This document shows positions 15,279-34,857 of a DNA stretch of 64,000 nucleotides, one piece after another. Numbering within the stretch: the first letter of the stretch is position 1; each line of letters begins with the position of its first letter. A program made the translations under genes and the position numbers. The notes under the pieces were generated by a model. That model did no database searches and was not told the origin of the DNA. It saw only the letters and a program-made list of their open reading frames with translations. Origin of the DNA: a virus; the IMG/VR virus record IMGVR_UViG_3300023174_004998, positions 32,551-96,550 of that record. One strand, 5' to 3'.

Positions 15279-15914
15279 TCATGCCCATGCCACCATTTTG
15301 AATCTTTCTTGGGGTATGCCAAAGTAATTGCATTTCCAATCACTCTGTGCAAAGAAATCCAAATGATGCCATTGGTCTTTGTGCTTCAGTATATCTCGAC
15401 CGGCCTGTTGCCAATTGATACTGTTTATTTTTTGTTCCATCTTTTGTCGAACTGCATCCACTTCTACAAAATCAAAACCGTCGTATTCCCAATGTAGAAC
15501 TTCAAACGCATTGCCTTCACGATCCACCCAGTCTATAGAAAAGTCTAGTCCCCATTTTGGCCTTAACTGTATGAGCTTGTGGCACAAGGGCATTTGCTCA
15601 CTCCACTGTAGAAGTTGTTCTCGCGCCCGATCGGCATATCCCTTGCGTTCAAATAGATAGCTGTGATTCAACACAGCACCTTCTATGCGATGGCCTTGTT
15701 CAAACCAAGGTGTCTTGATAGCATGCCGATGTTCTCTATGATTGAAGAATTTGGTTTTATTGCAGTTGGCAAATCTCTTTTCCAACGGACAAAGATCAAA
15801 TCCATTTTGATCAAACAGTGCAAAGTCTTCGACCAATGGCACAAACAGCATAGAGTCAGTGGCTGAATGCCAATACCCATCTGGGTCAAACTTATTGTTG
15901 GTCAGGCGTAGCAT
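15279..15914 (-). CDS. hypothetical protein
   Basis: Long ORF; start uncertain (15914 or 15959). Confidence 0.65.
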   Translation of the reverse strand: MLRLTNNKFDPDGYWHSATDSMLFVPLVEDFALFDQNGFDLCPLEKRFANCNKTKFFNHREHRHAIKTPWFEQGHRIEGAVLNHSYLFERKGYADRAREQLLQWSEQMPLCHKLIQLRPKWGLDFSIDWVDREGNAFEVLHWEYDGFDFVEVDAVRQKMEQKINSINWQQAGRDILKHKDQWHHLDFFAQSDWKCNYFGIPQERFKMVAWA

Positions 15915-16425
15915 TTCTTGGTGTAGGATACCTAGTGGCACTGGGTCGGGTGGGATCATGCTGATAGTTGCAGGCAGGATTGAGCCAGGCAGTGAGTCGG
16001 TCTTCTATGGCCTTGAGTTCTTGTTTCAACTGTGCCTGATTACCGTGTTGTGCCACAGTGGTTATGGGATAGAAACGTAGTTGTACATCTTTTAAATCAT
16101 TGATACCATACCCAGCCGCGGCAAATCGATCGGCAAACTGTTTCCAGTTGTGCATCTGTGCAGCCGAAGTACATTGATCCAATAACTTCTGGATGTGTTT
16201 GTGCCAACGTGCTGTGAAGTTGTCAGCGGCGGCAATGCCCACATAGAAGTAGCCCCAGTCAGGATGTTTCCAAACATAGATGCCCGACTTCTTTGTTTCT
16301 GCTGGACGGTCATTGCGCAGACGTATGGTCAAGCCAGGACGGCCTTCTCGCTGTTTGACCAAGGAATAGATATCGTAGAAATTGTAGGTAACACTACGAC
16401 CCAATTGTATTTCGTTCAATCTCAT
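15892..16425 (-). CDS. GIY-YIG-family nuclease-like protein with MRLNEI leader
   Basis: SGIYVW...FYVGIA...RWHKH...E...N motifs. Confidence 0.75.
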   Translation of the reverse strand: MRLNEIQLGRSVTYNFYDIYSLVKQREGRPGLTIRLRNDRPAETKKSGIYVWKHPDWGYFYVGIAAADNFTARWHKHIQKLLDQCTSAAQMHNWKQFADRFAAAGYGINDLKDVQLRFYPITTVAQHGNQAQLKQELKAIEDRLTAWLNPACNYQHDPTRPSATRYPTPRNATPDQQ

Positions 16426-16493
16426 ACTGGTGAGTAAGGGTTGCGATGACGATCATAACCATCGTCTTCTGGATACACTGGATATTCGTTCAT
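16422..16493 (-). CDS. 23-aa micro-ORF MNEYPVYPEDDGYDRHRNPYSPV
   Basis: Fills the gap exactly, preceded by AGGA, TGA overlaps next ATG. Confidence 0.55.
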   Translation of the reverse strand: MNEYPVYPEDDGYDRHRNPYSPV

Positions 16494-16494
16494 G

Positions 16495-17127
16495 TTATCT
16501 TCCTGCATTGCGTATGGCTGCACCGTTGTTGAAACTCTGGCTCCAGGAGTTAGCAGTACGATTACCTTTGCGAGCACTCCACTCGTAGCCTGCACGATGC
16601 CCTGAACAGTCTTTGGTGCATTGACTGCCTTTGAACATCAGCTCGTTTAGCTGTTCTTCTGTAAGACTTTCATCTAGTTCGTCATCCCCAAACTCCATGT
16701 GGTCATATGGGCCCCAGGGTTTGCCTGTACGACTATCTAGTTCACCTGATTCGTCACCGTGTTCATAGTAGTCATCGCTGTAGATTTCCACACCATCGAA
16801 TGTGCCATTGTAGCCAATGTTAAACCTGCGTGTGACACCGTCAGGACAAACAATGCCACGTTGTAACAATCGTTCTATGTCTTCTTGACTCTTGATACCT
16901 TTTTGCAAGTTGCCAGTATCATACACACCGTTGTACCAAGCTGATGCTAGAGTTCTAAAATAGTCTCCAGAATCACTGCCGCCTCCGGGTGCAAACTCAT
17001 TTAAGTCTTCGTTCTTCTTGCGACCTTGGCAATGAGCACGTTGGCTGAAACCTTTGGGGTTAGAGCAATCTATAGAGCGTTTGTATTTCCGGCTCCATTT
17101 TTCTGAGATGAATTCTTCAGCTCTCAT
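16495..17127 (-). CDS. putative internal head protein, multi-module (MRAEEFISE leader)
   Basis: Leader; modules KWSRKYKRSIDC.., EFAPGGG.., ELMFKGSQCTKDCSGH separated by LxE. Confidence 0.7.
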   Translation of the reverse strand: MRAEEFISEKWSRKYKRSIDCSNPKGFSQRAHCQGRKKNEDLNEFAPGGGSDSGDYFRTLASAWYNGVYDTGNLQKGIKSQEDIERLLQRGIVCPDGVTRRFNIGYNGTFDGVEIYSDDYYEHGDESGELDSRTGKPWGPYDHMEFGDDELDESLTEEQLNELMFKGSQCTKDCSGHRAGYEWSARKGNRTANSWSQSFNNGAAIRNAGR

Positions 17128-17531
17128 TTGGTCACCGGTCCACCTTCGACCCAAGCATCGCAGGTGCGCTTGGCTGCACACTTAAATTTTAGAAACTTGC
17201 AATATCCTAGATCGCCAGCATCTATGGTGTCATGTGGATCTGACCCTGGTTCACTGCCAATGCCCCTGGCTATACAATCCAGCATGTCAGGACTCATATC
17301 AAAGGCCGCACAGTTGCCACAGCGGTTGTTCTTTACTGATTCAATATCGTTGGTGTTCCAACGGTCGGCCAGTTCAGCCCAGTATTCTTCATTGGGCTCG
17401 TTGGGATTTAGCGGACCATAGTGATATTCATCTATGGCCTTTTGACGATTCTTGAGATTGAGATCAATGCTCTGCGTGGCTGGTGGACAGCCTTTTTCTA
17501 GAGCTTCTAACAAGTTGATATAGTTTCTCAT
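17124..17531 (-). CDS. Cys-rich (HiPIP-like pattern) putative internal protein
   Basis: MRNYINLLE leader; RCGNC...GYC...CAAKRTCDAW. Confidence 0.65.
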   Translation of the reverse strand: MRNYINLLEALEKGCPPATQSIDLNLKNRQKAIDEYHYGPLNPNEPNEEYWAELADRWNTNDIESVKNNRCGNCAAFDMSPDMLDCIARGIGSEPGSDPHDTIDAGDLGYCKFLKFKCAAKRTCDAWVEGGPVTK

Positions 17532-18136: not shown

Positions 18137-18149
18137 TGTTTTCCTTTGA

Positions 18150-18251: not shown

Positions 18252-18252
18252 T

Positions 18253-18783
18253 TCATGCTCCTTTGTTTTTGATCCAGTCATCTGGAGTCTTGTTGTGCTT
18301 GGCTACAAAACGATCATGTAGCTGTTTGGCAGTTATTTTTGATTTTTTAGCGATGGACTGCATCATGTGATCAATGGCATCGTAACTGGTGGGATTTTTT
18401 AAAACCTTTTCTAAATCCTTGACCTCGTCTTCACGCACCCGGGTAGCTACGTTCTTAGCTGGGCCTCGGCGTTCGGGATTGGGATCTTCTCTACGCTTCT
18501 TGGCCGCGGCTGATGCACGTTTCTTTTTGCCCAGTGCATAGGCCTTGGATCTTGGCAAACACTTGGGTTTACCTTCCGAATCATCGCCACGGGCACAGTC
18601 GCCACGAATCTTGCCATCGGGCCCAAAGCGTACCCATTTTTCCTTGAACCACTTCTTGAGATCCTCTTCCATTTGCTGTTCGCTCACAGGCACACAGTTA
18701 GGCACCATGCGGTCACCTTTTTTCTTCATGCCTGCTTGACGATATCCAGTCCAGCAAGCTTCGAGGATTTCTTGATATCTCAT
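18253..18783 (-). CDS. putative internal head protein of short basic modules (MRYQEILE leader)
   Basis: ACWTGY...PNCVP; EDLKKWFKEKWV...KPKCLP; third module ...KHNKTPDDW. Confidence 0.7.
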   Translation of the reverse strand: MRYQEILEACWTGYRQAGMKKKGDRMVPNCVPVSEQQMEEDLKKWFKEKWVRFGPDGKIRGDCARGDDSEGKPKCLPRSKAYALGKKKRASAAAKKRREDPNPERRGPAKNVATRVREDEVKDLEKVLKNPTSYDAIDHMMQSIAKKSKITAKQLHDRFVAKHNKTPDDWIKNKGA

Positions 18784-21700
18784 TTTTTCTTACCGCCATT
18801 GCCCCAGTTGTCAGCACCTTTTTTACGACACTGTACTAAAGCACCTGAAGCATAGGCACTGGGCCAAACTTTGTAACGTGATTTAACTTTATTGTAGCAA
18901 GCGTCTTGTTTTTCATCCAACTGGTCTTCGCCCAGTTCTATGTCACGACGATCTTTGGCTCTTTTCTTAGCATAGTCGGTTTGTGGATTCTTTGGTTGAC
19001 GTGCAACTGGTTTGCCGGCATCTACATCACGTTCACGAGCACGACGCTTTTGATAATCAGTTTGACCTTCCGCCACACCTTGCTGACTCAGTGCTTGACG
19101 TGCTTGTTTCAAGCGCACCAAGGCAGTGCTTTCACCTAACATTGAATCTTCGTCTTCACGATACACGGCCTTCTTCATGGCCAAGAACTTTTGCAGTGCT
19201 GCCAAGTCTTTGGTGTATTTGTCTTTGAGATCTTGGAATTGACGATCTGTTTCTGGCACAGGATACAGTTCTTCCATTTCAATATCTGCTTGCAGGCCAG
19301 GGTAGATACCGCCACGCACATTCTGTGCCTTTAAGAACAGCTTGTCGATCTGTTCTTTCATCTGGATTAACTCATCCAACAATGCTATGTGACGTCTAAG
19401 ACTTAGAAATTCTTCATGACGTTGAGTACGTTGAGCATTTGATGGACGACCACGACGTGGTCCAGCAGGTGTATTGAGATCAACTGCGGCCGGCGCTGGC
19501 TGTGCAGGTTGTTGTAGACTGCGCAACACTGACATGGCCTTGTCATTGAGTGCTTCTTTGATGTAGCCTTGCTTGATACCAACTTTGAGCAAATCGCCAA
19601 TACGTTGTTGTATCGCGGCCTTGGCTTCTGGATCACTCATCAGCGCGATGTCTTTTTGTAGTTCACGCATCACACGCATTTTTTCTGCCCAGTCGCTCAC
19701 AGTCGTGATGGCATTGTATCCTGAACGATTTAAATCTTCAGTTTCACGTATCTTGATACCTTGGCTTTGTGCGCGGCCTTCTAACTCAGCAATCTTCAAA
19801 CGGATGGCTTCTTTCTCACCAGGAGAAGCATTGGCCATCTGACGGAATAGTCGATCACGTGCATTTAAAAACTCTTCACGTTGTTTATTGCTACCGCCTG
19901 GTGTGGGTTGTGCAATGTTGAACTTGTCCATGCGTTGATTTTCACGTGCGATACCAGTCCAGTTAATAGTACCTGTGGGCCAGCGTACACCAATTTCCAT
20001 GGAAGGATATTTCTTCTTTAGAGCTTGTGCATGAGCAAAGGCTTTGTTGGAACTGTGGTGCTGTTTGAGATCACTGACAATACCATCCTTGCGACGTACC
20101 ACACGGAAGTCGCCCACTGGTTCTTCTTCCCCAGCTGATTGTTCTCTGCGTTTGAAATTTTGTGAAGCCTGCTGACCCGCTTTCCATTGCTGTTCAATGT
20201 CTAGGTCTTTGAAACGACCTTCTTCAACATAGTCTTCCTCATCAGCATAGTCATTGTATTTGACATTGGAAGCATGAAACGCATGTTTACCAAAATTGTA
20301 GAGATCCACTATGACAAAGTGCTTGTCACGGCCAAAGCCTGAGACATCACCAGTCTTGCCAGCATGCTCTACGTTGCCACCAATGATCACAGGATCACCA
20401 ATGTGTAATTCTTCATTGCTTTCGTTCATACCAACTGCTTTGCCAAAATCTCCCATGTCTACTCCTTGCAGTGCGGCTGCCATTGGGTCCACTGCGGCAT
20501 CTGATTTTTTCTTTCGAGCACGACTGATAGGAATCACTTTTCCATCATCCTTGGGTATTTCCACATACGGTGGTGCCTGTATCACAGTTGGTTCAGCGAT
20601 TTTCTTGGGAGCGGTTTTCTTGGGAGCGGCTTTCTTACGAACTGCTGGTTTCTTTTTCTTCTCAGGAGCAGGCTGTGCCACGTCTGTTGGTTGTTGCTGT
20701 GGTTGAGTAGCAACTTCTGGTTCTGCGGGTTTCTCTGCGGCCTTTGGTTGTGTTGCTTGCGGTTCTTCAGGTTTCACAGCAGGCTTGGCCGGAACTTCAG
20801 GAGCAGTTTTGGCTACCACTGGTTCTGGTTGTTGTTTGAGTTGTTGTATTTCTTGATCTTGTTGTTGCACCACAGCGGCCAACTGTTGCATCTGTTGATC
20901 TTGAGAATCGTTGTCTTTGCGTAGTTGATCAATTTCAGCTTGTGCGGCCTGCGATTTTTCTAATTCGTCCTGTACAAAGGCTTCAATGTCACTGCCGGCC
21001 GCACTTTGACGAGCACGGGCCAGCTGGAAAGCTCTGGCCACTCGGGGATTTACCATGCTCTTACGATCTAATTCTGTTATTTCAGAATTTTTTTTTTGAG
21101 CTTCAGCTTCTTTGATTTTGGGAGTGCCCATGCCAGGCAGATCCATCTGGCCTGGAGGAACAGGTTCTGTGCCTGGTGCAACATAGGCAGGAACTTTCTT
21201 AGGCATCATACCTTTGGCACGCAATTTGTCAATGTAGTCAACCATGGCCAACTTGTCACCAAATGTATTAAGAATGATGTTGACTTTTTGCTGTGGCTTC
21301 ATACGGCCAAAGTCTTTTAATATAGCATAGATCTGCGAACGATAAAGAGTAAGAGGGCGATCGCCAGCAAATTCGAATTCACTGTAGGGCTTGTTTTCCA
21401 TGTAGTCTTTGATCATGCGTTCCCAATTGATCTTGCCTGCTGTTTGTGTAGTAGGACGATCTGGATTGGCCATGGCGATCTCTTCTACAGCTTGATCTTC
21501 TTCCATCTGTCCGGGCATGGTATCACCTGTGACACCACGTTCGCCAGGAATACTACCTTGGAAATTCTTTTGTTTGTCAATGAGTTGACGCAGTTGTTTC
21601 ATGTGCTGATCAAACTTCACAGGATCTGCAAGATGATTCAAGAACTCTTCCTGACGACCTGCTTTGTTAAATGCTTTGTACTTGGCAAATATCCAACGTG

Positions 21701-21836
21701 TTTCCATTGGATCTAGAGTGATTGTTTCACCGCCAATGTTGAGTACAGCATCCTGTCCTGATTGGGAGGCCTGCATCAAGGCTCGTAAATTATCGTAGCC
21801 TGTGGTAGTATCTTCGATCAAGTTCAGTAAATTCAT
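18780..21836 (-). CDS. 1018-aa modular putative internal polyprotein
   Basis: MNLLNLIE leader; coiled coil, KOW/SH3-like and other segments separated by IKE/MNE/VEE/IRE/VAE/LDE. Confidence 0.7.
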   Translation of the reverse strand: MNLLNLIEDTTTGYDNLRALMQASQSGQDAVLNIGGETITLDPMETRWIFAKYKAFNKAGRQEEFLNHLADPVKFDQHMKQLRQLIDKQKNFQGSIPGERGVTGDTMPGQMEEDQAVEEIAMANPDRPTTQTAGKINWERMIKDYMENKPYSEFEFAGDRPLTLYRSQIYAILKDFGRMKPQQKVNIILNTFGDKLAMVDYIDKLRAKGMMPKKVPAYVAPGTEPVPPGQMDLPGMGTPKIKEAEAQKKNSEITELDRKSMVNPRVARAFQLARARQSAAGSDIEAFVQDELEKSQAAQAEIDQLRKDNDSQDQQMQQLAAVVQQQDQEIQQLKQQPEPVVAKTAPEVPAKPAVKPEEPQATQPKAAEKPAEPEVATQPQQQPTDVAQPAPEKKKKPAVRKKAAPKKTAPKKIAEPTVIQAPPYVEIPKDDGKVIPISRARKKKSDAAVDPMAAALQGVDMGDFGKAVGMNESNEELHIGDPVIIGGNVEHAGKTGDVSGFGRDKHFVIVDLYNFGKHAFHASNVKYNDYADEEDYVEEGRFKDLDIEQQWKAGQQASQNFKRREQSAGEEEPVGDFRVVRRKDGIVSDLKQHHSSNKAFAHAQALKKKYPSMEIGVRWPTGTINWTGIARENQRMDKFNIAQPTPGGSNKQREEFLNARDRLFRQMANASPGEKEAIRLKIAELEGRAQSQGIKIRETEDLNRSGYNAITTVSDWAEKMRVMRELQKDIALMSDPEAKAAIQQRIGDLLKVGIKQGYIKEALNDKAMSVLRSLQQPAQPAPAAVDLNTPAGPRRGRPSNAQRTQRHEEFLSLRRHIALLDELIQMKEQIDKLFLKAQNVRGGIYPGLQADIEMEELYPVPETDRQFQDLKDKYTKDLAALQKFLAMKKAVYREDEDSMLGESTALVRLKQARQALSQQGVAEGQTDYQKRRARERDVDAGKPVARQPKNPQTDYAKKRAKDRRDIELGEDQLDEKQDACYNKVKSRYKVWPSAYASGALVQCRKKGADNWGNGGKKK

Positions 21837-22654: not shown

Positions 22655-22656
22655 GA

Positions 22657-23097: not shown

Positions 23098-23242
23098 TGG
23101 GTTTCTTCTTTCTAGAATTCTTTTTATATTTATCCGCAGGCACTATAGGCTGGGTTCTTGACAACACAGCACCCATGGGCATGGCAACAGTGGCTATGCC
23201 GCCGCTAACCGTGGTTTCTGCTATAAATTCATGCGCTCTCAT
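23060..23242 (-). CDS. small basic putative internal protein (MRAHEFIAE leader)
   Basis: Leader, ETTVSGGIATVAMPMG, Lys-rich tail. Confidence 0.65.
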   Translation of the reverse strand: MRAHEFIAETTVSGGIATVAMPMGAVLSRTQPIVPADKYKKNSRKKKPNAVRRFENSISQ

Positions 23243-23528: not shown

Positions 23529-23556
23529 ACAGATATTTACCGCATGCGTAATTGTG

Positions 23557-24793: not shown

Positions 24794-24806
24794 AATGTAT
24801 TACTTA

Positions 24807-27257: not shown

Positions 27258-30200
27258 ATCATCACCGGTAATACATCCAAGGCACCAGAGTAGTTGTTTT
27301 CTCTGGCCCACATTGATGCTATCCTGTTGGCATCACCTTGATTGTTGCCCGCTCCACTGAATCTATACAGTTCACGGCCAGCACCATCTACAACTTGCCA
27401 CTGCCCAGAAAATTGATTACCAAATGGTGCACCACTGGATTGAGGGAAGTTTTGTGCAACATCTGGTTCAATGTCTTGCACATGGCGTCGAAGCTCTGCA
27501 GACCAATCACCTATTCCTCCTGCAGGTTGCGGTTCACCTATTCTAGCTTTTAAATCTCGAGAGTCTTGAGCATTGTCTGCGGCTCGCTTGACATCCTGTG
27601 GTTGAATTTCTAAATCGTCAGCATTCTCAAAGTCGTGAAGTACAGCCACTCGGGCTAATAGTTTTTGTGCTTGATCTTGATCAACACGCAGTATACTATC
27701 AATCACACGACCTGTGGGTTTGTAAACAACATCCCAATTGCTTTTTTGTTTGGGTTCTTTGATGCGCTTGGCCATTTGAGCGCGAGCACTTAACTTTTTC
27801 TCTGGCTCAGGAGTGTTGTCGGGTCTGCGATATACCTCGTAATCGTCAGAAAGTCGATCTCCGTATTCGGCCTGGACCTTTTCTTTGGCACGATCAATGT
27901 CACCAGCTCTAACAGTCAGTATGATGTCACCGTAGCTATCCATGACATCAAACCAAGGTTGTTTTAACCGCACATCCAACTGACGTGGGTCGTTGCTGTA
28001 TTTTCTGGTATATTGATCGTATGCAGTATCGTAGTCACGAGCATAAAATGTATCAATGATTCCATCAGGACTATTTTTATTAGCCATGTCGTAGACTTCG
28101 TATTCTTGTTTGCCAGTGGTAGGTATTTCTTTTTGTAGTACAGTATCAGCCCACTGTTTCTTGAGTTGTTCTTTGTCAATGGTACCTGCTGAGTATTCAG
28201 AAAACAGTTTCAGTGCGTCATTCTGCGCACCTGGTGATATTAACTTGTAGAGTTTTTTAGCATACTCTCGGCGCTCAAGATCTGGACGGCTGGCAATGTA
28301 CATGGCACGAGCAAAACGCAACATGGTATCTTTGATATCGTCCCATTCGCCACGACTCTCCATGGAGAGATAATCGCCACCCGGTGATCGGAATTCAATA
28401 TAGCCATCCTGTATGTGCGCCGATGTGTATTTGCTAGTACCCACACCTTGCTGAACATAACGAGCAGCCAACTCAATGAGATTCTTCTGTACTAACTCCA
28501 ATGCGCCCATTGGATCTGTTTTGGCTTCTGTGAGGTCGCCACGATTTCTAGCACCCTGTATGTTTTGTTTGAGTTTGCCCATGGCCGAAGCCGCATAGGT
28601 ATTCGAAGCACGACCAAACTTGTCCAGTATGTACTCGTCACCCATGAACAGCACTAATTTAACATAGTCAACATCTCCGCCCACATAGGGTATAGATATG
28701 CCCATGTGCAGGCCTGTGCTGGAGTTGGTGTAGGCATCAGCTTCGTTTTGTGCCCACTCTATTACGTCTTTGAGCTTGTCAATGGTTTCCAACAATGGCA
28801 TAGGTGGACTAACAATTTCCAGCCCCATGTCGTCGCCGTCATCAGGATCTAAACTACCGTCGGGTTCAATGATCCAGCGACCTTCTTTGCGTGTGGTTGA
28901 GTGATAGTTTCCGCTGACTTTGACTTCCATGCCCACCGCTTGTTGAAGACTATCGCCAATTTCACTCCAGTCACGGTCTCCACCTCCGGATCCACCTCCG
29001 GTCCAGTAAGGCCAGTCAAGAGTATTTGAGTTGGCAATATCGCTCATGTAACCATAGCGATCGCGCAAGAAATCACGCTCATCGTAGTCACCTGAGTCTC
29101 GCATCATTTCAAAATAGTATTCGCGAGCATTGTCATAGTATTCGCCTTGGCTCTCTACTTCACTAATGACTTCAGTTTCAAAATCTTCATGTGCGGCATC
29201 TGAGGCTTCTTGATACTTTTGATACAATTCGTTTTGTTTGGCATAAGCTGTTTGATCACTGCTTCTTGTAAATCTTGGTGCATCCTCGCCAGCTTGTAAT
29301 ATTGCTTGTGAATCATCGTCGGGAAACAGTTCATCTATTTTGTCAGCAATGCGTTTTTCACGTTCTTCGTCATCACTCCAGACATTGGTTTCCATGTAGT
29401 CTCGGACTTGATCTTCAGCGTTTTCGCTCCAAGACTCTGCAATTTGTTCATCTGCCCATTCAACAAATTCTTCAAAAAGTGTGTCGCGCAGATCTCGAGC
29501 ACCGCGACCACTTAGACCATAACCCCAGTCATCGTTGGAAAAGAAGTCTATGACATGATCAATATCGTCTGCACGTTCATCATAGTCATAGTCCGGCTCC
29601 ATATCACCTTCGTCATCGTCACGCTTGGTATCACGGAAGATCAATTCAGCTTCAAAGCCAGCACGTATGCCTTGTGCTTCAGGACTACGAGCCCAGGCTT
29701 CCAAGGTGCCGGTGTTCATCCTTACTTCGTTTATGGGTTCAAATTCGCCAGACTCTTTGAATTCTTTCAGGGCATTGGCCAAGTTCTTCATCAACAAGTC
29801 AGGACGACCTTGACTGTCTGTTTGCAAGCCTAATTTATTGGCTTCCTTGCCCAACTGTCCAGGTTTGATGTCCACTGTGAGTGCTGTTTTAAATCTTGGA
29901 TCTCGGGCCTGTTTCTTTGTGGGAATATAACCTGATGCATTTTCACGCACAGGTGCAGGACCTTGTATCACAACCACAGCACGGAACTGACCACCTAGGT
30001 CATCGGCTTCATGTTCTACAGGGCGCCATTCGCCTATGGAAATAGGACCATATCTTCGGTTAGCGTCTGCGTAAGCGGCGTTGAGTGCGGCTTGATAAGC
30101 GTCTTCACGTGTACGTCCAATGCCGTTGGCTGCCACACGTTCACCTTGTGCTTGTGGTCCACCCCAGATGCGTTTTCCACCCACACGTATTTCTTGATTG

Positions 30201-32650
30201 CCACGTGCTAGATCTCTTGCTATGCCTTTTAATTCTTCTTCGGCTCCTGCCTTGGTAAAGGTCTTGGGAGCATTGTATATCACACGCCCTAGATCATACG
30301 CAGGGCTCTGTGCTTTGGCAGCAGGCGATCCCAGGGCCATGGCTCCAGCCACAGCGGCAGTGCCCAGAGCTTTGCCTAGGCCTTCGTCTAGATCATCCAA
30401 TCTCCGTTGCCATTCTATTTCTTCTGGTGTACGAGGATCTTTCCAGTCGGGATTTTTTGTCAAATCCTGTAGTTCATAGGTATTAGCGCCCATTGGAACC
30501 AAGCCCAGGTACTGATGACTGTTGGGGGCCAAAAACGTTTGATCACTGCGCCAGCCACCTTGTTCCATGCCTTTGGCAGTTTTATACCAGGGTCGCCAAC
30601 TATACTTAAACCTGACCAGGTTGCGTCCATCAATAATCTGTTGAGAAACAACCTGTCTGAGCACTGCCTGTGTGCGGTATTGAGTATTTTGCTCTCTATC
30701 AGCCCAGGGATACCATACAATCTTGGCCTTTTTCTTCAACAAGGCACGTATCTGATCCCCCAAGGGATTGTGCAAGTCTGCTTCAGTGCGTTTTCTGGGA
30801 TGCCAGCTATCATCGTCGTCTTCGTCCTCCCAACGATCGCCATCATTTTTTGGTGGCTTGATCGGAGGTGATATTGATCCACCGCCTGGAGCAAATTCGG
30901 ACAAGTTCTGTTGACGATACATCTGATACATTTTTACATAGTCTTGTTCTTGTCGAGTCAACGGACGACCTAATTTGACCTTAGCAATTATGAATCGATA
31001 GTATTGTTCAGCATCGCGATCTTTACTGACAGGAGTGGCAATAGTCTCACCCACGTTGTAGGTAGGATCAGTCTTTTGTCGTGGCATACCTGCGGGCTGG
31101 TTGGGATCCACAGGGTCAATGTCTGTAGTATCAAGTCCTAATCTTTTTAAATGGTCGATATACTTGTGTTCGGTATTTTCATCACCAAAACTTACAATGG
31201 TACTAGGTGGCCCTTTACCAAACTCGCTGGGGTCAACTTGATCTAGATTGGCAATGTGTTTGCCAAGTTTATACCAGTCGTACACATCTGAAACATCCAC
31301 ACGCACTGTGCCTCGGGGCATGGTGGGTTTGAATTCTGGGCCAGGCGGAGTCTGATCACCATATTGTGCGGCCACGCTGTCACCATCTTCGCTCACAGTG
31401 CTGGCAAAGAACTCAGGATATTTGTTTTGAAAATGGCGCATGATAATACCTGCTTCGGTATTGGCTTCATTTTCGTAGGGGCTTCCTGTGCGACCTGCTG
31501 TGTCAGGCATTGATTTGCCCAGGCGTTCGTGCTGACGATAGTGCGTCAACTCATGTGCCAAGGTACGCAGTATGTCCATGACATGACGATCTTTGGTTTC
31601 CACTTCCACAGTTTTGTGATCATCTACATAGTGACCCATGGAGTGGATGTCGTGGCTGAGTTCACCTTTGCGTAACTTGATTTTGGGAAGTTGTTTTAAT
31701 TTCAAATACTTGGCAGCAAAGTGTACAAAACGACGTACCACCTTGTCCAATGGAATCGCTTTCTTTTCAACATTTACTGTGGATTCTTTTACTGACTCAC
31801 CGCCACCACCATCACCACCGCCATCACCACCGCCATCTGTGGCAGCATCGGTTTGTCCATAATAATGATAGCCTGGATAATAGTATCCGCCGAAGGCGCC
31901 GTACTTAAATGTTTTCTTCTTCTTCTTTTTCTTTCGGCGCTCATCAAGACTGAGTTTGGTATCTTCGAGAGCAGCCTTGTGATCAAATATCTTTTGTATC
32001 AAGCCCTGTTTACGCAGTATTTTATAAGCAAGATTTTCTGGACCAAATTCACCATGCTTGTCTAAGCCTGCTTGACGATATTTCTTCAAGGTATCTGTGA
32101 TGTGTGTGACTCGATCTAGGTCATTGGTGGATAATGCAAGCTCAATCAGTTTCTTTAATTTTTCGTATTTTTGTTGTGTGGATTTCTCGTCGAGATTGCC
32201 CCGGCGCTGAACAGGAATACGATTCCAGTCATTGTCAATGATGCTATACTCGCCCAGGCTACGCACAGGTTTGTTCGAGTCTTGAACATAGAGCTCAACG
32301 TCATAGCCTCTGATTTTTATATCGTGTTGATCGTTGTATTGATATTTTTTAGCATTAAAAAGCTCTTGATAAACATCGTCAGGATTGAGCCGGCTGAAAT
32401 CAACTAATAAGTGTAGGTCAATGTCGGAATGAGGAGTATAAGAGAAAGCGGCGTTGGAGCCACTCACAGTGATATCTTCTATGGCCAGATCATCGATGCC
32501 CATAAAGGTCTTAAAATCATCAGCGATTTTAAGCAGGGCATCGCGCACTTCGGGGCGCATGGTCTTGCCGTCCCAAAGTGCTGGATTAAGCTCAGTGTGA
32601 AACTTTACCGCGTCTGACAGGCGGTAGCTGTCTAATTCGTAGATGTCCAT
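27254..32650 (-). CDS. 1798-aa polyvalent protein: Pol-beta nucleotidyltransferase, zincin-like HExxH, several small modules, amidoligase (COOH-NH2 ligase) domain
   Basis: SGSNAAFSYTPHSDIDLH/VELY; TLAHELTH...ENEAN; GFEAE...EPDGSL...LEIVSPP...NSSTGLH...KY...IEFR. Confidence 0.85.
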   Translation of the reverse strand: MDIYELDSYRLSDAVKFHTELNPALWDGKTMRPEVRDALLKIADDFKTFMGIDDLAIEDITVSGSNAAFSYTPHSDIDLHLLVDFSRLNPDDVYQELFNAKKYQYNDQHDIKIRGYDVELYVQDSNKPVRSLGEYSIIDNDWNRIPVQRRGNLDEKSTQQKYEKLKKLIELALSTNDLDRVTHITDTLKKYRQAGLDKHGEFGPENLAYKILRKQGLIQKIFDHKAALEDTKLSLDERRKKKKKKKTFKYGAFGGYYYPGYHYYGQTDAATDGGGDGGGDGGGGESVKESTVNVEKKAIPLDKVVRRFVHFAAKYLKLKQLPKIKLRKGELSHDIHSMGHYVDDHKTVEVETKDRHVMDILRTLAHELTHYRQHERLGKSMPDTAGRTGSPYENEANTEAGIIMRHFQNKYPEFFASTVSEDGDSVAAQYGDQTPPGPEFKPTMPRGTVRVDVSDVYDWYKLGKHIANLDQVDPSEFGKGPPSTIVSFGDENTEHKYIDHLKRLGLDTTDIDPVDPNQPAGMPRQKTDPTYNVGETIATPVSKDRDAEQYYRFIIAKVKLGRPLTRQEQDYVKMYQMYRQQNLSEFAPGGGSISPPIKPPKNDGDRWEDEDDDDSWHPRKRTEADLHNPLGDQIRALLKKKAKIVWYPWADREQNTQYRTQAVLRQVVSQQIIDGRNLVRFKYSWRPWYKTAKGMEQGGWRSDQTFLAPNSHQYLGLVPMGANTYELQDLTKNPDWKDPRTPEEIEWQRRLDDLDEGLGKALGTAAVAGAMALGSPAAKAQSPAYDLGRVIYNAPKTFTKAGAEEELKGIARDLARGNQEIRVGGKRIWGGPQAQGERVAANGIGRTREDAYQAALNAAYADANRRYGPISIGEWRPVEHEADDLGGQFRAVVVIQGPAPVRENASGYIPTKKQARDPRFKTALTVDIKPGQLGKEANKLGLQTDSQGRPDLLMKNLANALKEFKESGEFEPINEVRMNTGTLEAWARSPEAQGIRAGFEAELIFRDTKRDDDEGDMEPDYDYDERADDIDHVIDFFSNDDWGYGLSGRGARDLRDTLFEEFVEWADEQIAESWSENAEDQVRDYMETNVWSDDEEREKRIADKIDELFPDDDSQAILQAGEDAPRFTRSSDQTAYAKQNELYQKYQEASDAAHEDFETEVISEVESQGEYYDNAREYYFEMMRDSGDYDERDFLRDRYGYMSDIANSNTLDWPYWTGGGSGGGDRDWSEIGDSLQQAVGMEVKVSGNYHSTTRKEGRWIIEPDGSLDPDDGDDMGLEIVSPPMPLLETIDKLKDVIEWAQNEADAYTNSSTGLHMGISIPYVGGDVDYVKLVLFMGDEYILDKFGRASNTYAASAMGKLKQNIQGARNRGDLTEAKTDPMGALELVQKNLIELAARYVQQGVGTSKYTSAHIQDGYIEFRSPGGDYLSMESRGEWDDIKDTMLRFARAMYIASRPDLERREYAKKLYKLISPGAQNDALKLFSEYSAGTIDKEQLKKQWADTVLQKEIPTTGKQEYEVYDMANKNSPDGIIDTFYARDYDTAYDQYTRKYSNDPRQLDVRLKQPWFDVMDSYGDIILTVRAGDIDRAKEKVQAEYGDRLSDDYEVYRRPDNTPEPEKKLSARAQMAKRIKEPKQKSNWDVVYKPTGRVIDSILRVDQDQAQKLLARVAVLHDFENADDLEIQPQDVKRAADNAQDSRDLKARIGEPQPAGGIGDWSAELRRHVQDIEPDVAQNFPQSSGAPFGNQFSGQWQVVDGAGRELYRFSGAGNNQGDANRIASMWARENNYSGALDVLPVMI

Positions 32651-32661
32651 CGTACATCTAT

Positions 32662-33624
32662 TTATTTAGATTTAGCTTTGGCCTTTTTTGTTGAAGGGTT
32701 GGTTTTTGCCACTACTTTGGCAGCAGGTTGTGGTGCCGGAACCTTGACAGTTTCATAGTTTGAAAAATCACTGGTCATGGGCTGATTGGCCTGCTGTGCT
32801 TGTTGTGCTTGCTGTTGTGCGGCCACTACCATTTGTCCTGCATCATGTTCCTTTTTCAAGGCTTCATACAGGGCTGGTTGTGTGGCATAATCAAACACAT
32901 AGGTTCCTGTGTGTTTCAGCAACACACGCTTGTCTACCCAAACTTCGCCACCAAAGTCACGCCAGTTTTCACAGAAAGTCCAGTCTTCTGAATAGTAACG
33001 GTTCTCACGAACTGCTGTGTCAAAGTAGGTCTTCATGTGTGGATCAAGTTCTTTGGGCAAGCCAATGTCATTGGCAAATGTTTTGACTGCAGGATGACGA
33101 TTTAGTTTTTCAAACACATGGCGCTTGATCAACATAAAGCCTGTGCCTGTTTTTGATACTTCTTGTAGCGGACCGTCTTCTTTGGCACCTTCAAAACCAT
33201 TTACTACCCACTTAACGGGCATGGTCTTCATTGGGTATAAACCACCAATGACGTCTTTGTCAGCATTGAGCATGACCAACAAGTGCCATGGCTCCCAGCC
33301 AATGTCAGCATCAATGAACATCAAGTGGGTGGATGTTGGTGTGTTGAGGAATTTGGCAACTAGAGTATTTCTAGCACGTGAAATCAATGACTCATTGGTC
33401 ATGGTTTCTATAGTCCAATCCAAGCCCAATTGACGGCAAGTGTTTGACCATTTGATATAGCTCATGAATGTGCTTTCTGTGAGCATGCCTCCATAGCAGG
33501 GCATACAAATATGCACACGCTGTTGGCGCAAATAATCAATGTTTACTTGAATCTGTTGTTGGCCAGGCTGAGCCTGTTCTTGTGGAGCCTGTTCAGGCTG
33601 TTGTGGGTTTTGTTGTTCGGACAT
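32662..33624 (-). CDS. GT-A fold glycosyltransferase
   Basis: CMPCYGG, ESLISRARN, HLMFIDADI (DxD), GTGFMLIKR, SEDWTFC. Confidence 0.85.
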   Translation of the reverse strand: MSEQQNPQQPEQAPQEQAQPGQQQIQVNIDYLRQQRVHICMPCYGGMLTESTFMSYIKWSNTCRQLGLDWTIETMTNESLISRARNTLVAKFLNTPTSTHLMFIDADIGWEPWHLLVMLNADKDVIGGLYPMKTMPVKWVVNGFEGAKEDGPLQEVSKTGTGFMLIKRHVFEKLNRHPAVKTFANDIGLPKELDPHMKTYFDTAVRENRYYSEDWTFCENWRDFGGEVWVDKRVLLKHTGTYVFDYATQPALYEALKKEHDAGQMVVAAQQQAQQAQQANQPMTSDFSNYETVKVPAPQPAAKVVAKTNPSTKKAKAKSK

Positions 33625-33675
33625 GTTTTCCTCTGAAATAATGTGCGTATATTTAGTTTACTATTATACGACAAA

Positions 33676-34857
33676 TTATTTCATTGGGTCAATGATAGTG
33701 TTCCAATTTGTGACATTATGGATAAGCCGCATACCGCCGTTGTCCATACGCAAGCGATAGCCCAGGCGTTGCAGTTCTTGACGCAATGGTGCCAATCTAG
33801 GACCTGGATTCTGCACAGTTTCATCCTTGGCTATGTCAATGATTTTGGTGGCCAATTGATGTGCTTGATCTACATCGGGTGGAGCTGAACGGTCTGCAGG
33901 GAATTGTACCACATCACCTTCTTCAATGTAGTCGGGATTTTCATCCAGGGCAACCTTGCTCATGTCAACTTCTTTGCCACGTGCCAAGGGTCTACGACCT
34001 TGTTTTTGCATGAAACGCTCGTATTCTGCCAGGGCGTCTACCAAACTCTTGACCACACCACCCTGGTACAGCACATACTGTAGACCCGAGTAGTTTTTGC
34101 CTTTGACCATGTTGACCATTTCAGCAAATTTACGAGCAAGGTTATTGACCATGCTGGATTCGTCCCAGGTGCCCATGCCACCATCGGGTATGATCTGATG
34201 TCCTGCATCGGGATCATTGACCAACACAGCTTCGTCTACAGCCTTTTCTGGCACAGCACCCATGACAGTATCTAGTATTTCTACTACTTTTGCTACCTTG
34301 ACGTCATTGTCTGCGGCCAGTGGGTACAGCACACGCACCAAATTGGCTTTTTGTTCTGCTGTCATGCCAGGCCATTTTGCACGTATTTCTGTAGCTGATG
34401 TCATGCCTGCACCAAATTGCACAGTGGGCAAGTAGGTCATGTAAGCATGATTTTTCATGGGCTCAAGGCCCGTGCGCTTGTAGGGTTGCAGATAAGGACT
34501 CAGTCCTTTGCGAGGACCACGTGTGATAATCTGTCCAGGTTGTCCAGGCTGTGGATTTTGATCGCGATCTTTTTCACTGCGAACAAAGATCAACTGTGTT
34601 TCTGCAGGGTCAAAATGCTGAGTAATTTCTTCAGCACTGAAAGGTGATCGTACTTGAATAAATCTATTGCCTGGAATACCTGCTTGTTGTGCCAGGAATT
34701 TTTTTGTTTTAAAAGGAAATGGGCGACCGGTGGTGTCGTCTGTGGCCGCTACATAGACTTCTGCTGAAGGAAATGCTTCACGTGCGGCATCATACAAGGC
34801 TTTGTGTCCTGCATGATAAGGGTGGAATCCACCAGGAATGATCACTAATTTTTTCAT
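33676..34857 (-). CDS. HxGH cytidylyltransferase-like (HUP) protein with C-terminal modules
   Basis: PGGFHPYHAGH, RPFPF, TSATEIR; VDE/LDE/IEE junctions after the catalytic domain. Confidence 0.8.
   Translation of the reverse strand: MKKLVIIPGGFHPYHAGHKALYDAAREAFPSAEVYVAATDDTTGRPFPFKTKKFLAQQAGIPGNRFIQVRSPFSAEEITQHFDPAETQLIFVRSEKDRDQNPQPGQPGQIITRGPRKGLSPYLQPYKRTGLEPMKNHAYMTYLPTVQFGAGMTSATEIRAKWPGMTAEQKANLVRVLYPLAADNDVKVAKVVEILDTVMGAVPEKAVDEAVLVNDPDAGHQIIPDGGMGTWDESSMVNNLARKFAEMVNMVKGKNYSGLQYVLYQGGVVKSLVDALAEYERFMQKQGRRPLARGKEVDMSKVALDENPDYIEEGDVVQFPADRSAPPDVDQAHQLATKIIDIAKDETVQNPGPRLAPLRQELQRLGYRLRMDNGGMRLIHNVTNWNTIIDPMK

What the first reader, a model, noticed from the sequence alone, without database searches (positions are those of the whole stretch)
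15892..34857. Array of capsid-targeting-tagged effector genes: a candidate injected 'toolkit' of ~15 proteins
Seen: otherwise unrelated ORFs share one N-terminal leader: MRAEEFISE (17127), MRAHEFIAE (23242), MRSHEFIDE (24297), MKAQEFVTE (24614), MRAQEFLLE (25697), MRAHEFVTE (25894), MRAQEFVTE (26667). Looser variants are MRYQEILE, MRNYINLLE, MNLLNLIE, MADLRKILE, MRLNEI, MRFYEI and MRAKEL. Known: the T4 internal-protein capsid-targeting sequence is MKTYQEFIAE and is removed by gp21 after Glu. Inference: the array is a set of head-packaged, co-injected enzymes (GIY-YIG nuclease, ParB-like, kinase, GNAT, possible RNase, PcfJ-like), a much larger and more enzymatic cargo than T4 IPI-III, likely for counter-defence or host takeover.
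Basis: partly seen in the sequence, partly recalled or inferred. Interest (0 to 1): 0.88.

Follow-up and report, generated by a model that had tools for sequence, protein, structure and literature searches.

The report
Capsid-loading tag on giant-phage proteins
An uncultured giant T4-related phage starts at least seven unrelated proteins with a near-copy of the short peptide that phage T4 uses to load proteins into its head. Comparative evidence, plus a published virion proteome of a cultured relative, indicates these are head-packaged cargo cut free by the head-maturation protease.

Summary
Seven co-directional, otherwise unrelated genes (window 16.5-26.7 kb) begin with M-R/K-A/S-x-E-F-[ILV]-x-E, and nothing else in the 96.5-kb record does. 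Synonymous sites vary, so the peptide is what is conserved.

- **Spread:** the tag heads hundreds of unrelated proteins in a clade of uncultured 315-372 kb phages. All five near-complete members tested carry a T4 gp21-type (S77) prohead protease.
- **Cut sites:** modules that follow the tag's Glu in one phage sit inside longer proteins in others, always preceded by [LIV]-x-Glu (76 of 76 junctions for the kinase-like module). That is T4's cleavage rule.
- **Experimental anchor:** cultured Ralstonia phage RsoM2USA carries the variant MKTFKQFLSE (T4: MKTYQEFIAE). Three of its seven tagged ORFs are among the ten virion proteins named in its published LC-MS/MS analysis, which does not mention the tag.
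- **Cargo:** kinase-like, ParB/Srx-like, GNAT and GIY-YIG domains are supported. PcfJ is not supported and the RNase idea was not tested.

"About 15 proteins" is an overcount: 7 are firm, about 7 carry short or degenerate tags, and several array genes are untagged. Packaging, cutting and injection are unmeasured in this clade. This scan has flagged the same kind of system on other DNA. It is a new variant of the T4 internal-protein system.

The parts
16495..17127 (-). 210-aa tagged protein, leader MRAEEFISE. It has three modules: a Cys module (KWSRKYK...), a middle part, and a C-terminal module.
   Evidence: 24.3 bits. Module borders fall at LNE44 and LDE153/LTE157. The first module is internal after LEE in L009.
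23060..23242 (-). 60-aa tagged small basic protein (pI 10.7), leader MRAHEFIAE
   Evidence: 25.8 bits. Orthologues in L001 and G001 keep the leader.
23557..24297 (-). 246-aa tagged protein, leader MRSHEFIDE, with a ParB/Srx-fold core and a basic tail
   Evidence: 85 of 120 database homologues carry the strict leader. Searches support the fold. It is internal after FTE in L001. RsoM2USA ORF385 is a homologue.
24297..24614 (-). 105-aa tagged basic protein, TTG start, leader MKAQEFVTE, function unknown
   Evidence: 23.9 bits. The G001 orthologue starts MRVAEFIAE.
24807..25697 (-). 296-aa tagged protein, leader MRAQEFLLE, function unknown
   Evidence: 23.0 bits. Matches PHROG families of unknown function. 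PcfJ is not supported.
25694..25894 (-). 66-aa tagged, very basic Cys module (pI 11.2), leader MRAHEFVTE
   Evidence: In 7 relatives the same module is the C-terminal end of long tagged proteins, preceded by VEE, VKE, LSE or TNE.
25891..26667 (-). 258-aa tagged protein, leader MRAQEFVTE, then a 63-aa linker ending LTE72, then a protein-kinase-like core
   Evidence: 26.8 bits. Searches support the kinase fold. The core is preceded by [LIV]-x-E at 76 of 76 internal junctions.
17124..17531 (-). 135-aa protein with a 9-residue variant leader MRNYINLLE, ending L-L-E at residues 7-9
   Evidence: Orthologues keep M-R-[DN]-x-I-N-x-[LM]-E. The matrix does not separate it from the null.
18253..18783 (-). 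176-aa basic protein with an 8-residue variant leader MRYQEILE
   Evidence: In L006, L007 and L008 its cargo (DLRKWFKEKWV...) carries the strict leader instead. Scores 1.6 bits.
18780..21836 (-). 1018-aa protein starting MNLLNLIE. The C-terminal Cys module follows LGE970/LDE975.
   Evidence: Leader status is uncertain.
21836..22696 (-). 272- or 286-aa acidic protein. The start is either MATQEFL... or MADLRKILE.
   Evidence: Cleavable Glu is not conserved in G001 or G002, so membership is uncertain.
24611..24793 (-). 60-aa basic protein with a degenerate leader MRAKEL and no [LIV]-x-E
   Evidence: Orthologues in L006 and L009 carry strict leaders MRSKEFITE and MRLREFVTE.
15892..16425 (-). 177-aa GIY-YIG protein with a 5-residue start MRLNE
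   Evidence: Pfam GIY-YIG at 23.1 bits against a cut-off of 22.6. Orthologues start MR[LI]xE. Five-residue M-[RK]-[LI]-x-E starts replace the 9-residue tag on kinase-type cargo.
26664..27257 (-). 197-aa GNAT acetyltransferase starting MRFYE
   Evidence: Pfam Acetyltransf_1, E=7e-6. The start is conserved. Tag status is uncertain.
27254..32650 (-). 1798-aa multi-module protein starting MDIYE, a candidate polyprotein. Modules: nucleotidyltransferase-like, zincin motif, amidoligase.
   Evidence: Borders of similarity to relatives fall on VSE421, VGE535, LDE756, VRE903 and INE975.
32659..32668 (-). Two overlapping TAAATA boxes 14-18 nt upstream of the 1798-aa gene. They resemble a T4 late promoter.
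   Evidence: In G002 the same box precedes the portal, sheath, tube and terminase genes and also the array genes.
23127..23132 (-). TAAATA box 35 nt upstream of the Dps-like gene, inside the array

Best explanation
The nine-residue start M-R-A-x-E-F-[ILV]-x-E is this phage clade's version of the T4 capsid-targeting sequence (T4: MKTYQEFIAE).

**Proposed mechanism.**
1. Proteins bearing the tag are made late.
2. The first part of the tag (MRAxEF) draws them into the assembling prohead core.
3. The gp21-type (Peptidase_S77) prohead protease then trims them after the Glu of [ILV]-x-E.
4. The same cutting motif joins the modules of the longer proteins. The array therefore encodes single-module and polyprotein cargo that is cut into separate pieces inside the head.
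5. The pieces stay with the DNA and probably enter the host with it.

**Likely cargo.** The pieces include small basic proteins, a kinase-like enzyme, a ParB/Srx-like domain and probably the GNAT, GIY-YIG and amidoligase/nucleotidyltransferase modules.

**Shown here.**
- The tag exists, is selected at peptide level, and has a restricted distribution.
- The protease is present in relatives.
- The junction rule holds.
- Tagged proteins are found in virions of a cultured relative.

**Inferred.** Targeting, cutting and injection in this clade, and what the cargo does.
For: 1. **The tag is real and restricted.** It is found only in this array.
2. **Selection acts on the peptide.** Across 50 leaders from 10 contigs, third codon positions carry 0.2-1.0 bit for most residues against about 2 bits at first and second positions of the fixed residues. 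Conservation stops abruptly after Glu9.
3. **It matches T4 at the residues that matter.** The EF-[ILV]-x-E core lines up with T4's E6-F7-I8-x-E10. T4 mutagenesis tied targeting to residues 4 and 7 and processing to residues 8 and 10 (PMC9026906; PMC8442874).
4. **The protease is present in relatives.** Peptidase_S77 is found in 5 of 5 tag-bearing records that are at least 90% complete. It sits in a T4-ordered head module: portal, 72-aa protein, 275-aa protein, protease, scaffold, capsid protein.
   - The capsid protein has [LI]-L-E sites around the position that aligns with T4's gp23 cut.
   - The protein in the gp68 position starts MNKFEQLIE.
5. **The junction rule holds.**
   - Modules placed right after the tag in one phage are internal in others. 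In 25 of 27 such junctions Glu is at P1, mostly with I, L or V at P3.
   - Among 120 database homologues chosen only by similarity to the kinase-like core, 76 of 76 internal junctions read [L41, I21, V14]-x-E, in 51 different upstream contexts. The background frequency of that tripeptide is 1.3%.
   - The junction lies in a low-confidence linker of the structural model.
6. **Targeting and cutting can be separated, as in T4.** The same cargo occurs behind 5-residue MRISE/MKLHE starts and behind uncuttable MRAQELGSG or MRAKEFVAD forms.
7. **A cultured relative provides protein data.** RsoM2USA has capsid protein 45% and protease 47% identical to G002.
   - Seven of its ORFs start M-x-T-F-K-x-[FY]. 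One is a homologue of the 246-aa cargo, two genes after the capsid gene.
   - ORF89, ORF132 and ORF438 are among the ten proteins named from LC-MS/MS of virion bands. ORF86 and ORF257 lie in tagged arrays (PMC8504454).
   - An overlap of at least 3 of 7 has hypergeometric P = 2e-4.
8. **Expression is probably late.** TAAATA boxes precede both the array and the structural genes.
9. **The tag is widespread.** A strict DNA pattern finds at least 120 IMG/VR stretches where fewer than 1 is expected. There are 164 tagged ORFs in at least 27 cargo clusters.
Against: - This record is only 26% complete and has no head genes or protease of its own. The protease link rests on relatives.
- No cleavage, packaging or injection has been measured for any phage that carries this exact tag.
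- The RsoM2USA tag is a different variant, and that paper assigned bands partly by mass. Its masses for ORF438 and ORF257 differ from the annotated ORFs.
- [LIV]-x-E is a short motif.
- Half of the looser leaders cannot be told from background by score.
- The array is interrupted by untagged genes: Dps, an exported Cys-rich protein and a 126-aa protein.
- TAAATA boxes also precede non-structural genes.
- The closest cultured relatives by polymerase (Phosso, Atu_ph07, CBB) and XacN1 lack the patterns searched.
Confidence: 0.8

Rival explanations
1. The tag and the [LIV]-x-E joints are protease sites, but processing happens in the cytoplasm, for example by the zincin module of the 1798-aa protein or by a host protease. 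The products act in the infected cell and are never packaged.
For: The 1798-aa protein has an HExxH motif and a weak metalloprotease PHROG match. No packaging has been measured in this clade.
Against: - Cutting after Glu with I, L or V at P3 is the known rule of T4 gp21, whose substrates are prohead components (PMC5694885).
- Tagged proteins are virion proteins in RsoM2USA.
- A conserved pair of tagged genes lies in the structural region between the tail genes and the large terminase, next to a virion structural protein, in G001 and G002.
Confidence: 0.07
2. The tag is a recognition sequence for a modifying enzyme encoded nearby, such as a radical-SAM enzyme, GNAT or amidoligase.
For: These phages carry 14-16 radical-SAM genes each. 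A GNAT and an amidoligase module sit in the array.
Against: - Radical-SAM-like ORFs occur in only 14 of 91 tag-bearing loci, no more than the genome-wide density.
- This rival explains neither the identical junction rule inside proteins, nor the match to the T4 sequence, nor the virion data.
Confidence: 0.04
3. The shared start is a nucleic-acid signal for translation re-initiation in a tightly coupled operon. Most starts overlap the preceding stop as ATGA.
For: ATGA overlaps occur at most array starts and there is no clear Shine-Dalgarno sequence. This explains part of the Arg (AGA) preference at residue 2.
Against: - Synonymous positions vary freely while the amino acids stay fixed.
- The tag also occurs after ordinary ribosome-binding sites and after CGA or CGT Arg codons.
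- The same [LIV]-x-E occurs at internal junctions far from any start.
Confidence: 0.02
4. The tag is only a recombination linker left by cassette shuffling, with no function of its own.
For: There is extensive module shuffling exactly at the tag and at the joints.
Against: - A neutral scar would not be kept at amino-acid level across hundreds of proteins and down to 27% cargo identity.
- It would not match T4's functional residues.
- Shuffling at the tag is also what is described for T-even internal-protein loci (PMC3012670).
Confidence: 0.04

Closest known systems
[quoted passage not shown]
   Same: - A roughly 10-residue N-terminal tag shared by unrelated proteins.
- The same E-F-[IL]-x-E core ending in the protease's [LI]-x-Glu site.
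- An S77 protease in a T4-ordered head module.
- Some cargo is small and very basic.
- The targeting part and the cutting part can be separated.
   Different: - The tag is one residue shorter, starting MRA instead of MKTY.
- There are many more tagged genes and far more diverse cargo, including enzyme-sized proteins (kinase-like, ParB/Srx).
- Modules are also strung into long proteins joined by the same cut site.
- The hosts are roughly 320-370 kb phages whose polymerase is closest to Phosso and Atu_ph07.
- There are no experimental data for this tag.
Variable internal-protein loci of T-even phages, where diverse defence-countering proteins share only the targeting sequence
   Same: Unrelated proteins are exchanged behind one conserved tag, a pattern read as an arms-race toolkit (PMC3012670; PMC9026906).
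   Different: - The T-even loci are described as sets of small basic proteins.
- Here the arrays run to 15 kb with multi-domain enzymes and polyproteins.
- The tag also occurs at a second, structural-module site in complete relatives.
Ralstonia jumbo phage RsoM2USA arrays ORF80-90, ORF254-258 and ORF403-405, plus ORF132, ORF385 and ORF438 (tag MKTFKQFLSE and variants)
   Same: - It has a T4-related head module, with capsid protein 45% identical to G002.
- It carries arrays of tagged genes and 5-residue MKLHE/MKLSE variants.
- ORF385 is homologous to the 246-aa cargo.
- Tagged ORFs were found in virions by LC-MS/MS (PMC8504454).
   Different: - The tag variant is closer to T4's.
- The paper does not mention the tag.
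- Only the ten most abundant bands were identified.
- This is my reading of the deposited sequence set against the published list.
Ejection and inner-body proteins of phiKZ-like giant phages (phiKZ, 201phi2-1, SPN3US), processed by gp175/gp245
   Same: Many head-internal proteins are trimmed after Glu by a related prohead protease. Propeptides are proposed to target proteins into the prohead (PMC5694885).
   Different: - Their cut motif is A/S/G-x-E.
- Their propeptides are mostly more than 100 residues long and are not a short portable tag.
- They belong to a different phage lineage.
Phage P1 Dar system (DarA, DarB, Hdf and others)
   Same: Anti-restriction proteins are packaged in the head and delivered with the DNA (abstracts of PMC9024508 and PMC12810830).
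   Different: Loading follows an ordered protein-protein hierarchy, not a shared short N-terminal tag. I did not read these papers beyond the abstracts.

Membership tests
T4-type capsid-targeting sequence / gp21 propeptide system | A short N-terminal peptide shared by otherwise unrelated proteins | tested here: met
   Seven strict leaders with no other similarity between the proteins. Across relatives there are 50 leaders and a further 164 in IMG/VR loci.
T4-type capsid-targeting sequence / gp21 propeptide system | The peptide ends in the protease's site, [L/I]-x-Glu, and resembles MKTYQEFIAE | tested here: met
   In a cargo-selected sample, [ILV] occupies position 7 in 99% of leaders and Glu occupies position 9 in 81%. 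The T4 sequence comes from PMC8442874.
T4-type capsid-targeting sequence / gp21 propeptide system | A gp21-type (Peptidase_S77) prohead protease in the same genome | tested here: inconclusive
   It is absent from this 26%-complete record. It is present in 5 of 5 tag-bearing relatives that are at least 90% complete.
T4-type capsid-targeting sequence / gp21 propeptide system | Tagged proteins are physically present in the head | not testable with these tools
   Indirect only. Tagged ORF89, ORF132 and ORF438 of cultured RsoM2USA are in its published virion protein list.
T4-type capsid-targeting sequence / gp21 propeptide system | The tag is removed by cleavage after Glu | not testable with these tools
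   Comparative support only: 76 of 76 and 25 of 27 module junctions read [LIV]-x-E or x-x-E.
T4-type capsid-targeting sequence / gp21 propeptide system | Late expression together with head genes | tested here: inconclusive
   TAAATA boxes lie upstream of the array and of structural genes, but also upstream of other genes.
Protein kinase-like fold (258-aa cargo) | Kinase fold with a Gly-rich loop, a catalytic Lys and catalytic or metal-binding Asp residues | tested here: met
   The model has pLDDT 77.7. Foldseek gives 102 matches at E<=1e-3 (all rows listed are kinases or aminoglycoside phosphotransferases), with PknB at 3.3e-5. G101, G103 and K118 are invariant, and D235 and D254 nearly invariant. 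In a neighbouring ESM cluster, 23% of members carry Phage_T7_kinase. Activity was not tested.
ParB/Srx fold (246-aa cargo) | ParB/sulfiredoxin fold with a DGxHR-type motif | tested here: inconclusive
   The top Foldseek hits are all ParB, Noc or Srx but weak (E 0.05-0.3). VIA Z is 5-6.2 over 80-90 residues. H97, G99, R100 and R102 of the GHDGRHR motif are invariant. There is no Pfam match.
GIY-YIG nuclease (177-aa protein) | Pfam GIY-YIG domain over the curated cut-off | tested here: met
   PF01541 scores 23.1 bits against a cut-off of 22.6, E=9e-5, and covers only profile positions 2-46 of 78. This is marginal.
GNAT acetyltransferase (197-aa protein) | Pfam Acetyltransf_1 over the cut-off | tested here: met
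   PF00583 scores 26.7 bits against a cut-off of 20.7.
PcfJ-like (296-aa cargo) | Match to the Pfam PcfJ model | tested here: not met
   There is no match at E<=1 in a six-frame search of the record and none in hmmscan. The only lead is a 0.90 ESM neighbour in which 33% of members carry PcfJ.

The most novel reading that the evidence does not exclude
A whole clade of 320-370 kb freshwater-type jumbo phages, and more distantly RsoM2USA, uses a plug-in cargo grammar. A 5-10 residue head-address tag plus [LIV]-x-Glu joints lets any module be loaded into the capsid, alone or strung into polyproteins of up to about 1,800 residues. The modules seen include a kinase, GNAT, ParB/Srx, nuclease, nucleotidyltransferase and peptidoglycan hydrolases. 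The head protease cuts the chains apart and the pieces are injected as a ready-made host-takeover and counter-defence kit far richer than T4's three internal proteins.
Probability: 0.5. Interest if true: 0.75.

Novelty: new variant of a known kind. Interest (0 to 1): 0.62.

Why it matters
- **Cargo without proteomics.** If the tag works as in T4, it gives a sequence-only way to read the injected protein cargo of uncultured giant phages. That cargo is the first thing a host cell meets and a likely reservoir of anti-defence and host-takeover enzymes.
- **Shuffled modules explained.** The junction rule would explain why these phages carry long proteins made of shuffled modules.
- **A possible packaging handle.** The tag is a short, portable candidate for loading foreign proteins into large capsids.
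- **Reinterpreted virion proteins.** It reinterprets the unexplained "hypothetical" virion proteins reported for RsoM2USA.
- **What is not new.** The principle has been established for T4 since the 1990s, and T4 reviews already suggest the targeting sequence is an evolutionary way to load varied proteins. The new elements are the extent, the enzyme cargo and the polyprotein form.

Tried and rejected
- **Nucleotide similarity to cultured phages.** None was found.
- **My first DNA pattern on the record.** It used CGN for Arg and found nothing, because the Arg codons are AGA.
- **The tag in the closest cultured relatives.** Phosso, Atu_ph07 and CBB have no EF-type tag. XacN1 has no T4-type pattern.
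- **Literature search for the peptide strings.** It returned only irrelevant hits. No paper describes such tags in T4-related jumbo phages.
- **Pfam and PHROGs on the tagged proteins.** Most have no named family.
- **The 258-aa protein against cultured phages.** No match.
- **PF27024 (Phage_T7_kinase).** It is not in the local Pfam copy.
- **Sequencing-run look-up.** "Lake" comes only from earlier notes of this scan.
- **Radical-SAM linkage.** Tested and rejected.
- **The 1018-aa protein as a polyprotein.** For most of its length, borders of similarity to relatives do not coincide with [ILVM]-x-E sites. Only its C-terminal module looks jointed.
- **Complex prediction.** I did not run a protease-tag or scaffold-tag prediction. 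The T4 partner of the tag is not defined, alignments would be shallow, and enzyme-substrate pairs are poor cases for that test.

Full report
**Where the window lies.** The window is bases 32,551-96,550 of a 96,550-base IMG/VR virus record that CheckV rates 26% complete. Nearly all genes run on the minus strand. The DNA polymerase is closest to the jumbo myoviruses Sinorhizobium phage Phosso (50%), Agrobacterium phage Atu_ph07 (47%) and the CBB/GAP32/121Q group (42%). There is no nucleotide-level match to any cultured phage.

**The observation.**
- No other ORF start in the record has the pattern.
- Apart from the leader, the seven proteins are unrelated. The one exception is a basic module shared by the 246- and 66-residue proteins.
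- Most starts overlap the previous stop as ATGA. This accounts for part of the preference for Arg (AGA) at residue 2 and shows a tightly coupled operon.
- The rest of the tag is not a nucleic-acid signal. Codons for Ala3, x4, Glu5, Phe6, [ILV]7 and x8 vary synonymously within the window.
- Across 50 leaders from ten related contigs, third positions carry 0.2-1.0 bit for most residues while first and second positions of the fixed residues carry about 2 bits. Conservation ends abruptly after Glu9.

**Distribution.**
- A search with the 258-residue protein brought in eleven related loci. All carry several co-directional genes with the same leader on different bodies.
- I fetched two long relatives whole: G002 (352,754 bases, terminal repeats, 100% complete) and G001 (315,778 bases, 91%).
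- In G002 the leader occurs in one array at 54-74 kb and on a conserved pair of 123- and 129-residue proteins. That pair lies in the structural region between the tail genes and the large terminase, next to a virion structural protein.
- The pentapeptide EF[ILV]xE occurs 7 times at residue 5 of a G002 protein and twice elsewhere in 113,011 residues.
- The 80 loci listed in that call hold 164 tagged ORFs in at least 27 cargo clusters.
- Among 120 database homologues of the 246-residue protein, chosen by the body and not the tag, 85 carry the strict leader and many others carry an 8-residue form.

**The protease and head module.**
- The window's own record has no Peptidase_S77 match, as expected for a quarter of a genome.
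- All five tag-bearing records that are at least 90% complete have one. They are G001, G002, G006, G008 and G009, at 315-372 kb.
- In G002 and G001 the protease sits in the T4 gene order: portal, a 72-residue protein, a 275/287-residue protein, protease, scaffold-like protein, gp23-type capsid protein.
- The capsid protein aligns to mature T4 gp23 so that T4's cut site falls near residue 31. It has conserved [LI]-[LM]-E sites ending at residues 7, 19 and 34.
- The protein in the gp68 position starts MNKFEQLIE, also nine residues ending [L]-I-E.

**The junction rule is the strongest internal evidence.**
- Modules that begin right after the leader's Glu in one phage occur as internal domains of longer ORFs in others. 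The residues in front of them are then almost always hydrophobic-x-Glu.
- The basic Cys module of the window's 66-residue protein (MRAHEFVTE|NFADG...) is, in seven relatives, the C-terminal end of long tagged proteins. There it follows VEE, VKE, LSE or TNE.
- The 246-residue body follows FTE inside a 401-residue protein of L001.
- Over all modules tested, 25 of 27 internal junctions have Glu at P1.
- For the kinase-like core I used 120 database homologues picked by core similarity alone.
  - In 34 the core sits directly after the leader.
  - In 76 the core is internal. All 76 have Glu at P1 and Leu (41), Ile (21) or Val (14) at P3, within 51 different upstream octapeptides.
  - The background frequency of [LIV]-x-E in these proteomes is 1.3%.
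- In the window's own 258-residue protein the core is preceded by LTE72, in a stretch of low model confidence. This fits an exposed linker.
- In the 1798-residue protein, borders of similarity to relatives fall on VSE421, VGE535, LDE756, VRE903 and INE975.
- [L/I]-x-Glu is the published cleavage rule of T4 gp21, whose known substrates are prohead components (PMC5694885; PMC9026906).

**Comparison with T4.**
- T4's targeting sequence is MKTYQEFIAE (PMC8442874). The clade consensus is MRAQEF[ILV]TE.
- The review of Black's work reports that targeting depends mainly on residues 4 and 7 and processing on residues 8 and 10. It also reports that Asp at position 10 blocks cutting but not targeting.
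- Aligned on EF-I-x-E, T4's F7, I8 and E10 correspond to the positions that are nearly invariant here. These are F6 at 90%, [ILV]7 at 99% and E9 at 81% in the cargo-selected sample.
- The clade also shows the same separation of the two functions.
  - Some bodies carry MRAxEF or MRAxEL followed by no Glu, or by Asp (MRAQELGSG..., MRAKEFVAD...).
  - Others carry only a 5-residue M-[RK]-[LI]-x-E start (MRISE|, MKLHE|) on the same cargo that elsewhere has the full tag.

**An experimental anchor in a cultured relative.**
- The 246-residue cargo has one homologue among cultured phages, ORF385 of Ralstonia jumbo phage RsoM2USA (33% identity).
- That phage's capsid protein, protease and portal are 45%, 47% and 39% identical to those of G002.
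- ORF385 starts MQTFKQFLSE and lies two genes after the capsid gene.
- The pattern M-x-T-F-K-x-[FY] hits seven ORF starts in that genome: ORF81, 89, 132, 254, 385, 404 and 438, the last at its eighth codon.
- Neighbouring genes carry variants: MNQTFKQFLTE, MKFSDYILE, MRLKQFLME, MKLSE, MKLHE and MSFKTFLE.
- The published characterisation excised the most abundant bands of purified virions and identified them by LC-MS/MS as ORFs 38, 86, 89, 132, 257, 356, 359, 361, 383 and 438 (PMC8504454).
- My masses for ORF89 (28,562 Da), ORF86 (96,426 Da) and ORF132 (76,624 Da) equal the paper's figures, so the numbering agrees.
- Three of the seven tagged ORFs are therefore among ten named virion proteins out of 486 ORFs (hypergeometric P = 2e-4). 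ORF86 and ORF257 lie inside tagged arrays.
- The paper mentions no leader or targeting sequence.
- Caveats: bands were assigned partly by mass, the paper's masses for ORF438 and ORF257 differ from the annotated ORFs, and this is a different tag variant in a fairly distant relative.

**Timing.**
- The hexamer TAAATA is the core of the T4 late promoter TATAAATA (established knowledge). It occurs 30 times on the gene strand of the record, about 19 of them 10-35 bases upstream of a start.
- Those sites include the tail-fibre genes and the 1798-residue gene that heads the array.
- In G002 the box precedes the portal, sheath, tube and terminase genes and also the array genes.
- This fits late expression but is not specific to structural genes.

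**Cargo.**
- Kinase-like core of the 258-residue protein: model pLDDT 77.7. It gives 102 Foldseek matches at E<=1e-3 (all rows listed are protein kinases or aminoglycoside phosphotransferases). The Gly-loop and Lys118 are invariant, and Asp235 and Asp254 nearly so. An ESM-Atlas neighbour cluster has 23% Phage_T7_kinase.
- Core of the 246-residue protein: it models well (pLDDT 81.8, tag residues 1-8 disordered) and resembles sulfiredoxin, ParB, Noc and Osa at Z 5-6.2. H97, G99, R100 and R102 of its GHDGRHR motif are invariant.
  - I rate this assignment as moderate.
  - In other phages this domain is fused to Glyco_hydro_19, a CwlJ-type hydrolase, NUDIX or nucleotidyltransferase domains.
- GNAT and GIY-YIG pass Pfam, the latter barely.
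- The 60- and 66-residue tagged proteins are very basic (pI 10.7 and 11.2), like T4's internal proteins.
- PcfJ is not supported. The RNase idea for the 105-residue protein was not tested.
- Untagged genes inside the stretch include a Dps-like ferritin conserved at this spot in all relatives, a signal-peptide Cys-rich protein found only in this phage, a 126-residue protein, a glycosyltransferase and a nucleotidyltransferase.

**Rivals.**
I tested that here. Radical-SAM-like ORFs occur in 14 of 91 tag loci, no more than the genome-wide density in these phages, which carry 14-16 such genes each.
- A translational signal is excluded by the synonymous variation.
- Cytoplasmic processing cannot be excluded, but it fits neither the protease rule nor the RsoM2USA virion data.

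**Verdict.**
- The reading as a T4-type head-address and propeptide tag is well supported (0.8). Injection and a takeover or counter-defence role are plausible but inferred.
- This scan has already flagged the same kind of system, and this same MRAxEF tag, on other DNA (e1-5826867, e1-5756021, e1-5702602, e1-3862018, e1-1066390 and e1-5841484; e1-5765646 and e1-5989654). Those are unchecked notes and I did not count them as evidence.
- I found no published description of the tag.
- It is a new variant of a known kind: the T4 principle extended to a large uncultured clade, to enzyme-sized cargo and to protease-jointed polyproteins.

Noticed in passing
window 22657-23097 (-): A Dps/ferritin-like gene (Pfam Ferritin, E=1.6e-20) without a tag sits inside the array. 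It is conserved at the same spot in all eight relatives examined and has its own TAAATA box. A DNA-compacting protein in an internal-protein array is suggestive, but its role is unexplained.
   Followed up: partly
window 17528-18136 (-): A 202-aa protein with 12 Cys and a typical signal peptide (MKQLLAIVAFIMLSTPVLA) lies in the middle of the tagged array. It has no homologue in the relatives fetched and is presumably exported, not packaged.
   Followed up: partly
whole record; e.g. window 63244, 56573, 53368, 39226, 35851, 34868, 33655, 32668, 23539, 23132 (-): TAAATA boxes lie 10-35 nt upstream of many starts, often leaving leaders of only 5-10 nt. There are 30 on the gene strand. In G002, 68 of 422 genes have one. 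This is probably the clade's late promoter.
   Followed up: partly
G001 and G002 whole genomes; window 42550 and 46634: These jumbo phages carry 14-16 radical-SAM-domain genes each (5 matches in this record's 96 kb), scattered around the genome.
   Followed up: no
database homologues of window 23557-24297: In other phages the ParB/Srx-like 158-aa core is fused behind the same tag to Glyco_hydro_19, CwlJ-type Hydrolase_2, NUDIX or nucleotidyltransferase domains. Tagged peptidoglycan hydrolases would fit ejected proteins that act in the periplasm.
   Followed up: no
window 16995-17010 and 30880-30900 (approx.), within the 210-aa and 1798-aa proteins: Both proteins contain the same junction L-[NS]-E|FAPGGGS, at LNE44 and LSE585. 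This is a shared linker right after a cut-type site.
   Followed up: partly
G002:263121-263878 and G001:10875-11640: A conserved pair of small tagged proteins (123 and 129/134 aa) lies in the structural region between the tail genes and the large terminase, next to a virion structural protein. They are the best candidates for the clade's core internal proteins.
   Followed up: partly
RsoM2USA MG752970.1: ORF80-90, ORF254-258, ORF403-405: A cultured Ralstonia jumbo phage has three arrays of genes with T4-like tags that its publication does not mention. The published masses for ORF438 (51.69 kDa) and ORF257 (17.57 kDa) are lower than the annotated ORFs (62.4 and 19.65 kDa). This could reflect processing or different gene calls.
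   Followed up: partly
window 27254-32650 (-): The 1798-aa protein combines a nucleotidyltransferase-like N-terminus (phrog_36119), an HExxH zincin motif, a Gly/Asp-rich low-complexity run, a hydrophobic Ala/Gly segment and an Amidoligase_2 domain.
   Followed up: partly
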